Shown here: one piece after another, positions 32,086 through 35,000 of the stretch
Position numbering within the stretch: the first letter of the stretch is position 1
Layout: each line of letters opens with the position of its first letter
Source: Octopus vulgaris
Lineage: Eukaryota
DNA length: 64,000 nucleotides
Reading direction: 5' to 3'
Assembly: GCA_951406725.2 (NCBI GenBank)
Contig: OX597825.1
Span: forward strand, 11,160,001-11,224,000
Program-made: the position numbers

Positions 32086-35000
32086 TCACCGGAGTAAGCA
32101 CATAAATGTGAAACAAGGTTGAAAAAAGAGTACTCAAATACCAGAGGTAGAGTAATATGCTTTATTTGTTAAACAAAACTGTCCGACGAACGGGAACGTG
32201 AAACTCCGAGTAACAGCTTTTGTTATATTTCTGCTGCTTTTAAATAAAGTATATATATTTATATATATATACATACATATCGTTTAAGTATTTGAAGTTG
32301 AATATGAAAGAGGTCATTTGCTGTTTGTAAATTTATGACCCTTTTCTACAAGTTGATTCTTTCATTGCCTTGATTTGTTATTGATGTTTTGGTTTGTCCA
32401 AGAATGAAGTCCTGCCAGTCAACTTTATTTTGTTACTTTCTCTTACATTTCACTTTGTCATTTATATTGTTTTTCTCTCATTAGTAGCTATAGCCAACAT
32501 ATTCGTAGTGACCAGCTAACAAGTTCAGGCATATTCTTTTTATTTGTGGCTATTTAACATGATACAACTTGTTCTTCATACTGTTAGTCATTATAATATA
32601 TACTATATTTATTAAGATGTTTTTCTCCACAACACTAGAATTGGAATTTTAACTTCTTAATCTAGTTAATTTTGTAGGGTTTTATTCTGGAACTATTTTA
32701 TCTGTTTGCATATATATATATATGTGTGTGTGTATATATATTTATAATGATCAAGGTTGAAAGAAGGGGGTTTACAACTTATCCGGTAAGTAGAAAGAAA
32801 ACTAATAATAATAAAAAAAACGGTTACAAGTGATAGGCTAATTCTGTTTTGAAAATTTCTGTGCTTTTCTATTTTCTCAAATATGTAATTATGTTAAATG
32901 AGAGAAAAGTAGTTATTAACACTCACATTACTGTAATCATGTGAAAAAAGTAGCTGTTAAATAATTGATTATTGTAATATTTTCATATTACATTATTGAT
33001 ATCTTCTTAAAAGCTTTTAGCTTTTTCATTCTCTTTTTTTATTCATCATTTCATAAAATATCACCATAACAAAAAAGAAAAGTAACAGTTTTATTAATTA
33101 TGTTTTTGTTCTGCAATGTTTAGCAAACGGAATTATTTACTGTAATATTTTAGATACGTACTTATCTGTCGTTCGTATGCATTTCTCTTGTGATCTCCGT
33201 AGCAGTAAAGTAACTTTTTATCAGTTTCTTAATGTTAAGCTAAATGCATCACAATTCTTACTAATCAGAATATATCATTAAAAATGACTATACGACTATT
33301 AATTTGTGCAAAATTTTTTTTGAGCAGTTTAAAGTAGTTTCAATCAAGTCACAGTTTTATTGTGCTCTTTCACTTGAGGTGGTTTTAAGTGTAAACAAAA
33401 ACATGTGCAGCTTGTCAGCACAACTATTACTATAGTGATTGAATAGTGATAAATGACTTTCATGAATTTTTTATTTGTTTCATATATATATATATATATA
33501 TATACATATATATATTTACATTTGATTGATAAAATAAAAATTATCTTTTGGTAGTTTTTTTTTTTTTTTTAGTAAATTCTGATTCATTTTAGAATATATC
33601 TTTACAGTCTAAATTTCATGCTGTGTCAATAAAATACCTGTTCGTGGAAAAACCAAATTTTAAAAAATTATAAAAACTAACAATATTTTATGTACTTATT
33701 CTGTCCATGTGACATAGGCTATCAGTCTGAGATTTGTTTGTAGCACACGTGATACTGAAGCTGCTGTTTATCATTGTGAGACCTTTATGTAAAAGTAACA
33801 TCTTTATATTTTTCCTGATGTTTTCGTTAAAAAAAATTGATTAGTTCTAATTAGCTTGAAAAACTTGTATTGGCAATTATAGAGGGTGACTGAGATAGAA
33901 TTCATCTCAAAGGGTTTGGATTGAAGAATGTGTATCAAAACATTTAATTCTCTTAAGTTCTTATGTATATGAACTATTGATGTATACATTAAAAAAATGT
34001 TTTAGGAAAAAAAATGAAAACTATGAACAATACAGTACAATAATGTTCAAAATGTGACCGCGATTTTTTTTTCCTTTGTCTTCCTTTCTTTGGATCTTTT
34101 CTTCTCCTATGTTTCCGACGAAGAGCTCCGCTCGAAACGTTAAACCCTCCTTCTTTCCTGAGTGTCCAATAATACTGTATTTGTTCCACGTCCTCGCGTT
34201 GTTGTGTTTTTTTGTGCTTTCATGTTTGGATTAACAATAACGTTCAGCTCTTTTGGTACCTATCTACATATGATTATATGATTCTTTGTTATTACAATGA
34301 AAACTTCACTAATTTTAAATATTTAAATCTTCCATATAAGAACCATTTATTATGTTACATTCCAAACACTGACTTAAAGGAAGCTATTTTACTAAATCTA
34401 CACCAGCTCCGGATAATTTGCAAAATTAATTTAAGCACATAGGTAGTATGTCTCATTAGAAATATTGTTATGAGAAGATTAGGGTTAAATTTGAGGTAAA
34501 TTGTTATGTAGGTAATTAAAAAAAAAAAAATCTGAATTTTCTGAAATGTATCTAATGTTATTGTTAACACAGAAAGAAATAAACTAAATTGAGCTATATT
34601 TCTTTGTCCCTTTAAGCATTACTTTAGTTGGTTTTAGCAAAGGTTAGTAATATTTTCCCTAGATCAGTAACTTCGTGTTTTAACATTGAAACAATTATAA
34701 TACTCCACTTTCATTGACTGTTTACAGTTTTATATACAAGACATTGTATATAACACTATGTATATAACCCACCAGTTCAAACATTTCCATAGGGACATTT
34801 TATCTGAATACAAATTCTAAAATTTTTCCAACTGTAAAATGCTGCAGCTTACTAAAATGTACTAACTTCTATTCAAGCACAATTATATTTTTGACTAACA
34901 AATGTATATTCATTCCATTTTGCTACTACTACTACTACAATAATTATGTTCTTTAATGTTCACTGTTTGGCTTCCCTTAAATTTGTTGCAACTATTTACT

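What the first reader, a model, noticed from the sequence alone, without database searches (positions are those of the whole stretch)
32747..32785. Hidden deltaN first exon: TA/deltaN dual-promoter architecture in a cephalopod p53-family gene
Seen: inside the 22.6-kb intron after the two N-terminal exons, a 39-nt ATG-initiated exon (MIKVERRGFTTYP) ends in a perfect gtaagt donor in phase with the LNPIM exon. This predicts a ~370-aa protein lacking the transactivation domain. The surrounding ~1.5 kb is comparatively repeat-poor. Known: vertebrate TP63 and TP73 make dominant-negative deltaN isoforms from an intronic P2 promoter, and bivalve deltaNp63/p73 cDNAs start with a similar short peptide (recalled). 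Inference: the deltaN switch is conserved across molluscs and is likely missed by automated annotation.
Basis: partly seen in the sequence, partly recalled or inferred. Interest (0 to 1): 0.8.

Follow-up and report, generated by a model that had tools for sequence, protein, structure and literature searches.

The report
Conserved deltaN start exon, octopus p63
A 39-base ATG-started exon inside a long intron of an octopus p53-family (p63-like) gene encodes almost the same 13 residues that begin the N-terminally truncated "deltaN" isoforms of snails and mussels, so this known two-start-site gene layout also reaches cephalopods.

Summary
ATG 32747 to 32785 reads MIKVERRGFTTYP and is followed by GTAAGT. 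It ends in phase 0, matching the phase-0 exon at 37754.

Anatomy alone is not special: 3 of 9 GTAAGT sites in the same interval have such an ATG-open frame. The peptide is. It is 11/13 identical to MIKVERTGFTTYR, the first residues of deltaN-type p63 proteins of Lottia, Gigantopelta and Pomacea, and 10/13 to Mytilus. In all four the peptide joins directly to LNPI. Its score is 54, against a maximum of 33 in 100 random 64-kb sequences.

The host gene matches Octopus sinensis tumor protein 63 isoform X3 exon by exon.

Best reading: the first coding exon of a deltaN isoform lacking the TA exons. This is a new member of a known kind.

Not shown:
- transcription, promoter or splice junction;
- whether RefSeq already lists this isoform (cluster look-up unavailable).

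- the "22.6-kb intron" holds a 33-nt micro-exon (18079-18111);
- the product would be about 518 aa, not about 370.

The parts
32747..32785 (+). Coding part of the candidate deltaN first exon: ATG plus 12 codons, MIKVERRGFTTYP, ending in phase 0. The 5' end of the exon (transcription start) is unknown.
   Evidence: 11/13 identical to the N-terminus of P0009, P0006 and P0088, and 10/13 to P0011. Score 54 against a random maximum of 33.
32786..32791 (+). Donor splice site GTAAGT of the candidate exon.
   Evidence: 6 of the 12 mapped exons of the gene use the same hexamer.
32710..32746 (+). (AT)n/(TG)n microsatellite directly upstream of the ATG. It holds an out-of-frame ATG at 32722 whose 12-codon frame overlaps the start codon.
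32675..32677 (+). In-frame TAG stop 70 nt upstream of the ATG. It closes the frame, as expected for a first coding exon.
14621..14706 (+). TA exon 1 (coding part). It holds the SQDFDTIWNNL motif that aligns with the transactivation/MDM-binding motif of other molluscs. It would be absent from a deltaN form.
15016..15157 (+). TA exon 2, ending in phase 0. Absent from a deltaN form.
18079..18111 (+). 33-nt micro-exon LVTGPSSLAQL (phase 0 at both ends). Present in octopus X3 and Argonauta X1. Lies upstream of the deltaN exon.
37754..37846 (+). First exon common to TA and deltaN forms. It begins with LNPIM, has a phase-0 acceptor and a GTGAGT donor.
   Evidence: LNPI follows the deltaN peptide in P0006, P0009, P0011, P0088 and P0073.
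39140..55534 (+). Eight further common exons: 39140-39204, 48901-48979, 52233-52419, 52930-53040, 53356-53461, 53928-54046, 54522-54616 and 55428-55534. They encode the DNA-binding domain and the tetramerisation motif. The SAM-domain exons lie beyond the window.
   Evidence: tblastn of P0001, exon table, Pfam on P0001.

Best explanation
Window 32747-32785 is the first coding exon of a deltaN isoform of the octopus p53/p63/p73-family gene. It is orthologous to the deltaN exon of gastropod and bivalve p63.

Inferred mechanism:
1. Transcription starts at an internal promoter in the intron downstream of the TA exons.
2. The exon supplies an ATG and 13 residues, then splices from the GTAAGT donor at 32786 to the acceptor at 37754.
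3. The product lacks residues 1-87 of the TA form, including the F..W..L transactivation/MDM-binding motif. It keeps the DNA-binding domain, the tetramerisation motif and, with the X3 C-terminus, the SAM domain (about 518 aa).
4. Such a form can occupy the same DNA sites and join the same tetramers as TA forms. This is how vertebrate deltaNp63 and deltaNp73 modulate or oppose TA isoforms (established knowledge for vertebrates, inferred here).

Shown here: the exon anatomy, phase compatibility, position, and conservation of the peptide. Inferred: promoter, transcription, splicing, and the protein's action.
For: 1. The host gene is identified. The exons are 100% identical inside their boundaries to 'tumor protein 63 isoform X3 [Octopus sinensis]' (P0001) over residues 1-408. 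Pfam finds P53 at 140-328, tetramer at 360-397 and SAM at 474-529.
2. The peptide is 11/13 identical to the N-terminus of Lottia DeltaNp63alpha (P0009), Gigantopelta X2 (P0006) and Pomacea (P0088). It is 10/13 identical to Mytilus californianus X3 (P0011), and 7/10 to the shorter Elysia start (P0073).
3. In all five the peptide is followed at once by LNPI, the first residues of the octopus exon at 37754. Both junction sides are phase 0.
4. The match is not chance: score 54, next best in the window 22, random maximum 33 in 100 trials.
5. Octopus-Lottia identity is 85% for this peptide. It is 21-25% for the TA exons, 38% for the adjacent common exon and 72-88% for the four exons inside the Pfam DNA-binding-domain span. 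Conservation at that level in an intron implies purifying selection.
6. An in-frame stop lies 70 nt upstream, and the donor hexamer is the one used by 6 of the gene's 12 mapped exons.
Against: - There is no transcript evidence of any kind: no junction reads, no mapped transcription start.
- All 5 cephalopod proteins retrieved (P0001-P0005) have TA-type N-termini.
- Two searches seeded with the Lottia deltaN N-terminus found no cephalopod deltaN protein: 13 hits among 16 candidates of 296-944 aa, and 2 hits among 2 candidates under 296 aa. This is weak evidence, because isoforms are hidden inside 90% clusters.
- Two positions that do not vary among the three gastropods with the full 13-residue peptide differ in octopus (T7R, R13P).
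- The region upstream shows no recognisable promoter feature. It is 26.6% G+C, a microsatellite abuts the ATG, and an out-of-frame upstream ATG at 32722 overlaps the start.
- No p53-type response element lies within 8 kb. The window total is 5, against 4.8 expected.
Confidence: 0.85

Rival explanations
1. Chance: an AT-rich 22.6-kb interval simply offers ATG-open frames in front of donor-like hexamers, and this is one of them.
For: 3 of 9 GTAAGT sites in 15158-37753 have a phase-0 ATG-open frame. The other two are 15348-15419 and 16097-16147.
Against: Only this one encodes the molluscan deltaN peptide: 11/13 identity and score 54, against a random maximum of 33 in 100 trials and a next best of 22 in the window.
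Confidence: 0.01
2. Relic: the exon was the deltaN start in the cephalopod ancestor but is no longer transcribed in this octopus. It is an intact-looking fossil.
For: There is no transcript evidence. No cephalopod deltaN protein was seen. There are two substitutions at positions invariant among the gastropods with the full peptide. A microsatellite has grown up to the ATG.
Against: ATG, open frame, phase and a consensus donor are all intact, and 11/13 residues are kept, while neighbouring coding exons of the same gene have drifted to 21-38% identity. Neutral intron sequence would not keep this over the time since cephalopods split from gastropods and bivalves (Cambrian, general knowledge). Any loss of use would have to be recent.
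Confidence: 0.08
3. Internal cassette or 'poison' exon: the stretch is spliced into TA transcripts through an upstream acceptor, rather than starting a transcript of its own.
For: An AG behind a short pyrimidine-rich run lies at 32676-32677. The frame is open from 32678.
Against: In 4 other molluscs the protein begins at this methionine, one residue earlier in Pomacea. Similarity to them does not extend upstream of the ATG. An acceptor further upstream would meet the in-frame TAG at 32675.
Confidence: 0.04

Closest known systems
Molluscan deltaN p63 isoforms: Lottia gigantea 'DeltaNp63alpha' (UniProt A0A0F7YYU2, third-party inferred annotation; P0009), Gigantopelta aegis isoform X2 (P0006), Mytilus californianus isoform X3 (P0011), Pomacea canaliculata (P0088). 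Papers seen only as citations: Baricevic et al. [quoted passage not shown] 2007, 'Identification of DeltaN isoform ... in molluscan p63/p73-like homologues'.
   Same: A 13-residue N-terminal peptide (10-11 of 13 identical) joined directly to the LNPI exon, in a host gene with the same DNA-binding domain, tetramer motif and SAM domain.
   Different: The class is Cephalopoda. There are two substitutions (T7R, R13P). An octopod-specific micro-exon sits between the TA exons and the deltaN exon. There is no transcript or annotated protein evidence for the octopus form in what I could reach.
Vertebrate deltaNp63 and deltaNp73, made from a second promoter in the intron that follows the TA exons (established knowledge, recalled).
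   Same: The layout is the same: TA exons, a long intron holding an alternative first exon that gives a short unique peptide, then common exons encoding the DNA-binding and oligomerisation domains. The unique peptide is of similar size (13-14 residues in vertebrates, recalled).
   Different: Homology of the unique peptide to the vertebrate ones was not tested, because no vertebrate sequence was brought in. According to a phylogeny I read in passages, protostome genes are sister to the whole vertebrate p53/p63/p73 radiation, so this is not a strict p63 orthologue (PMC7531772). No p53-type response element lies near the octopus exon.
Delta133p53/Delta113p53 (internal promoter further downstream in TP53) and Delta40p53 (internal initiation) (recalled).
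   Same: They are N-terminally truncated p53-family forms. The octopus common exon also has an in-frame ATG at 37766-37768 that could in principle give a leader-less truncated form.
   Different: Those forms add no conserved unique peptide from a dedicated exon, and Delta133 also removes part of the DNA-binding domain. The octopus form would keep the whole domain.

Membership tests
Molluscan deltaN p63-type alternative first coding exon | N-terminal peptide of the type MIK[VF]ERTGFTTYR | tested here: met
   11/13 identical to P0009, P0006 and P0088, and 10/13 to P0011. Score 54 against a random maximum of 33.
Molluscan deltaN p63-type alternative first coding exon | Peptide joined directly to the common exon that begins LNPI, with compatible phases and a donor site | tested here: met
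   Phase 0 at 32785 and at 37754, with a GTAAGT donor. LNPI follows the peptide in 5 other molluscan proteins. This holds at sequence level only; the junction itself was not observed.
Molluscan deltaN p63-type alternative first coding exon | Lies on the gene's strand, downstream of the exons with the transactivation motif and upstream of the first common exon | tested here: met
   TA exons at 14621-14706 and 15016-15157, micro-exon at 18079-18111, candidate at 32747-32785, common exon at 37754. The transactivation motif is aligned.
Molluscan deltaN p63-type alternative first coding exon | Host gene is a p53/p63/p73-family gene with DNA-binding, tetramerisation and SAM domains | tested here: met
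Molluscan deltaN p63-type alternative first coding exon | A transcript that starts at this exon (own promoter, capped 5' end, junction reads) | not testable with these tools
   No cephalopod transcriptome or genome collection was available. The cluster look-up was off.
Vertebrate-type deltaN (second-promoter) isoforms of p63/p73 | Alternative first exon in the intron after the TA exons, giving a short unique N-terminus | tested here: met
   Position and 13-residue size. The vertebrate side of the comparison is recalled.
Vertebrate-type deltaN (second-promoter) isoforms of p63/p73 | Sequence homology of the unique peptide or exon to the vertebrate deltaN exon | not tested
   No vertebrate sequence was brought in. 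None of the 136 further 50%-identity representatives carries the molluscan motif with 5 or fewer substitutions, but those carry no names and hide isoforms.
Vertebrate-type deltaN (second-promoter) isoforms of p63/p73 | p53-family response element in the internal promoter (known for deltaNp73, recalled) | tested here: not met
   There are 5 full sites (2 or fewer mismatches, spacer 0-13) in 64 kb, against 4.8 expected. The nearest to 32747 is at 40957.
Vertebrate-type deltaN (second-promoter) isoforms of p63/p73 | Dominant-negative or distinct transcriptional action towards TA isoforms | not testable with these tools
   Needs expression and reporter assays.

The most novel reading that the evidence does not exclude
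The 13-residue deltaN peptide is a functional module in its own right, for example a second activation or partner-binding motif. It has been held at the conservation level of the DNA-binding domain in cephalopods, gastropods and bivalves since their Cambrian split. On this reading molluscan deltaN forms are more than TA-less competitors. The TA/deltaN two-start layout would then predate Mollusca, and might be homologous with the vertebrate deltaNp63/p73 exon rather than convergent.
Probability: 0.3. Interest if true: 0.6.

Novelty: new member of a known kind. Interest (0 to 1): 0.38.

Why it matters
DeltaN isoforms decide whether p63/p73 proteins activate or oppose their targets in vertebrates. 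Whether that switch is ancestral to bilaterians or arose more than once is still unsettled.

Finding the molluscan deltaN exon intact in an octopus extends the layout to the third large molluscan class. It also shows that the short unique peptide is as conserved as the DNA-binding domain (85%, against 21-38% for the neighbouring N-terminal exons). That argues the peptide has a job of its own.

Practically, it gives cephalopod biologists exact coordinates for primers, isoform-specific probes and genome-editing targets.

Tried and rejected
- Chance test of the anatomy: the exon is not special on anatomy alone. This test was superseded by the peptide comparison.
The 62-aa DNA-binding-domain exon was used instead.
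- Searches seeded with residues 1-40 of Lottia DeltaNp63alpha, for proteins of 296-944 aa and for proteins under 296 aa: no cephalopod deltaN protein. The 71-aa hit P0092 is an intron read-through into the LNPI exon, not a deltaN start.
- Scan of 1.84 billion 50%-identity representatives with P0009. None of the 136 new proteins has the motif with 5 or fewer substitutions. One earlier named protein, Nucella lapillus P0083, has a divergent version (8/13).
- p53 response-element scan: at chance level, and none near the exon. The DNA search pattern was not accepted, so it was done in a script.
- Pfam on octopus TA exon 1: no P53_TAD hit. The motif is seen only by alignment.
- Pfam on six transposon-looking ORFs: no hit reached the curated cut-off. 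The only match was DUF5423 at E = 0.0014, 18 bits against a cut-off of 25.
- Literature: nothing on cephalopod deltaN p63. Zero papers for 'deltaNp63 73'. The two key molluscan papers are not held.

Full report
**What is at the coordinates**

One search shows ATG at 32747, twelve further sense codons to 32785 (MIKVERRGFTTYP), and GTAAGT at 32786. The window has no N and is all upper case. The frame is closed by TAG at 32675, 70 nt upstream.

**The host gene**

The 62-aa exon at 52233-52418 was searched on its own. It gave 91 proteins with E <= 0.001 among 99 candidates. The best was 'tumor protein 63 isoform X3 [Octopus sinensis]' (P0001, 592 aa, 100% identity), followed by Argonauta hians and Acanthosepion pharaonis.

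tblastn of P0001 against the window, plus peptide look-ups, place residues 1-408 in twelve plus-strand exons. All have AG/GT borders and consistent phases:
- 14621-14706
- 15016-15157
- 18079-18111
- 37754-37846
- 39140-39204
- 48901-48979
- 52233-52419
- 52930-53040
- 53356-53461
- 53928-54046
- 54522-54616
- 55428-55534

Residues 409-592, which include the SAM domain, are not in the window. Pfam on P0001 gives P53 at 140-328, tetramerisation at 360-397 and SAM at 474-529. The first exon carries SQDFDTIWNNL. This aligns with the SQ.TF..LW..L transactivation motif of nine other molluscan proteins. Pfam's P53_TAD model does not reach significance on the 28-residue octopus exon alone.

**Is the candidate more than chance?**

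On anatomy alone, no. In 15158-37753, 3 of 9 GTAAGT sites have an ATG-open frame ending in phase 0. So do 3 of 15 GTRAGT sites and 8 of 38 GTRAG sites.

On content, yes. Among the 91 proteins, four begin with MIK[VF]ERTGFTTYR:
- Lottia gigantea 'DeltaNp63alpha' (P0009)
- Gigantopelta aegis isoform X2 (P0006)
- Pomacea canaliculata (P0088, one extra M)
- Mytilus californianus isoform X3 (P0011)

Elysia crispata (P0073) begins MERLGFTTYR. A divergent Nucella lapillus protein (P0083) begins MLKLERTSMTTFR. The octopus peptide is 11/13 identical to the first three and 10/13 to the mussel.

In the first five of these proteins the peptide is followed at once by LNPI. In TA forms LNPI follows the TA region. 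LNPI is exactly where the octopus exon at 37754 starts, and both sides of the proposed junction are phase 0.

Scored against the first 13 residues of P0009, the site scores 54. The next best 13-mer in all six frames of the window scores 22. The best score in 100 random 64-kb sequences was 33 (mean 26.0, sd 2.1).

**Strength of conservation**

Octopus X3 was aligned with the Lottia TA form. Identities were:

| Segment | Octopus-Lottia identity |
|---|---|
| Two TA exons | 21% and 25% |
| Micro-exon | 9% |
| LNPIM exon | 38% |
| Four exons inside the Pfam DNA-binding-domain span (48901-53461) | 72-88% |
| DeltaN peptide | 85% |

An intronic stretch kept at the level of the DNA-binding domain across molluscan classes is under purifying selection. 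This is the main reason to think the exon is used.

**What it most likely does**

The exon supplies the start codon and 13 residues of an isoform that skips the TA exons and the micro-exon. Only lengths were computed. With the C-terminus of X3 the form would have 592-87+13 = 518 residues, and the window encodes about 334 of them. It would keep the DNA-binding domain and the tetramerisation motif. It could therefore share DNA sites and tetramers with TA forms, as vertebrate deltaN isoforms do (established knowledge, inferred here).

The predicted protein as a whole therefore remains unexamined.

**What is not shown**

- No promoter, transcription start or junction was observed.
- The upstream sequence is very AT-rich (26.6% G+C for 32001-34000).
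- A microsatellite (32710-32746) touches the ATG.
- An out-of-frame ATG at 32722 opens a 12-codon frame that overlaps the start.
- p53-type response elements are at chance level in the window (5 against 4.8 expected). The nearest is 8 kb away.
- All five cephalopod proteins retrieved are TA forms.
- Two searches seeded with the Lottia deltaN N-terminus found no cephalopod deltaN protein.
- A scan of 50%-identity representatives added none.

These negatives are weak, because isoforms differing only at the N-terminus sit inside one 90% cluster. The octopus cluster has 13 members, and the tool that lists members was unavailable. Whether RefSeq already carries this isoform therefore stayed unchecked.

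Orthologous cephalopod introns and RNA reads therefore stayed unchecked as well.

- The 22,596-nt interval is right, but it contains the 33-nt micro-exon at 18079-18111. That micro-exon is present in octopus X3 and Argonauta X1 and absent from Acanthosepion and seven other molluscs.
- 'Repeat-poor' holds: 9% against 26% self-matching sequence. It is not distinctive, because three other stretches of the intron have 0%.
- '~370 aa' is too small.

**Comparison with what is known**

DeltaN isoforms of molluscan p63/p73-like genes are in the literature. I saw only the citations:
- Muttray et al. 2007, Mar Biotechnol 9:217 (in the reference list of PMC10564563).
- Baricevic et al. 2015, Comp Biochem Physiol B 186:51 (in the reference list of PMC5499142).

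Neither paper is held, and supplements were not consulted.

In passages, PMC7531772 states that protostome p53-like genes are sister to the vertebrate p53/p63/p73 radiation, so 'p63' here is a name rather than strict orthology. In passages, PMC5543598 treats molluscan TA domains and does not use the word 'isoform'.

Full-text searches for cephalopod deltaN p63 returned nothing relevant. The search for 'deltaNp63 73' found no paper. The library lacks most subscription journals, so this is not proof of absence.

**Verdict**

This is a real, conserved deltaN first coding exon, found here in a cephalopod. It is a new member of a known kind rather than a new mechanism. Confidence in the identity of the exon is high (0.85). 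Its use in living octopus, and its promoter, remain to be shown.

Noticed in passing
window 18079-18111 (+): 33-nt micro-exon LVTGPSSLAQL, phase 0 at both ends, with good acceptor and GTAAGT donor. It is present in Octopus sinensis X3 and Argonauta hians X1 and absent from Acanthosepion and seven other molluscan proteins aligned. It looks like an octopod-specific, probably alternative, insertion between the TA region and the common exons.
   Followed up: partly
window 37766-37768 (+): In-frame ATG (the M of LNPIM) five codons into the first common exon. It is shared with Argonauta but not with Acanthosepion or other molluscs. It could allow internal initiation of a truncated form without any unique peptide.
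   Followed up: no
window 32722-32760 (+): Out-of-frame upstream ATG inside the microsatellite. It opens a 12-codon frame that overlaps the deltaN start codon. It matters only if transcription starts further upstream.
   Followed up: partly
window 15348-15419 and 16097-16147 (+): Two other ATG-open, phase-0 frames ending at GTAAGT in the same interval. Neither was among the top five matches to the deltaN peptide in the window scan. They show how easily such 'exons' arise by chance here.
   Followed up: yes
P0083 (Nucella lapillus, 368 aa), found: A divergent gastropod p53-family protein starts with a recognisable but drifted deltaN-type peptide (8/13 identical to Lottia), followed by LNSL. This suggests a duplicated gene copy that kept only the deltaN start.
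   Followed up: no
window 18112-37753, both strands, and elsewhere: About 26% of the long intron matches other places in the window (interspersed repeats). Similar open frames recur on both strands across the window, and long TG/TA/CA microsatellites occur, for example at 54650-55000. Six transposon-looking ORFs gave no Pfam hit that reached the curated cut-off.
   Followed up: partly
window end (after 55534): The exons for residues 409-592 of the octopus protein (linker, SAM domain, C-terminus) are not within the window, so the gene runs off its 3' end.
   Followed up: yes
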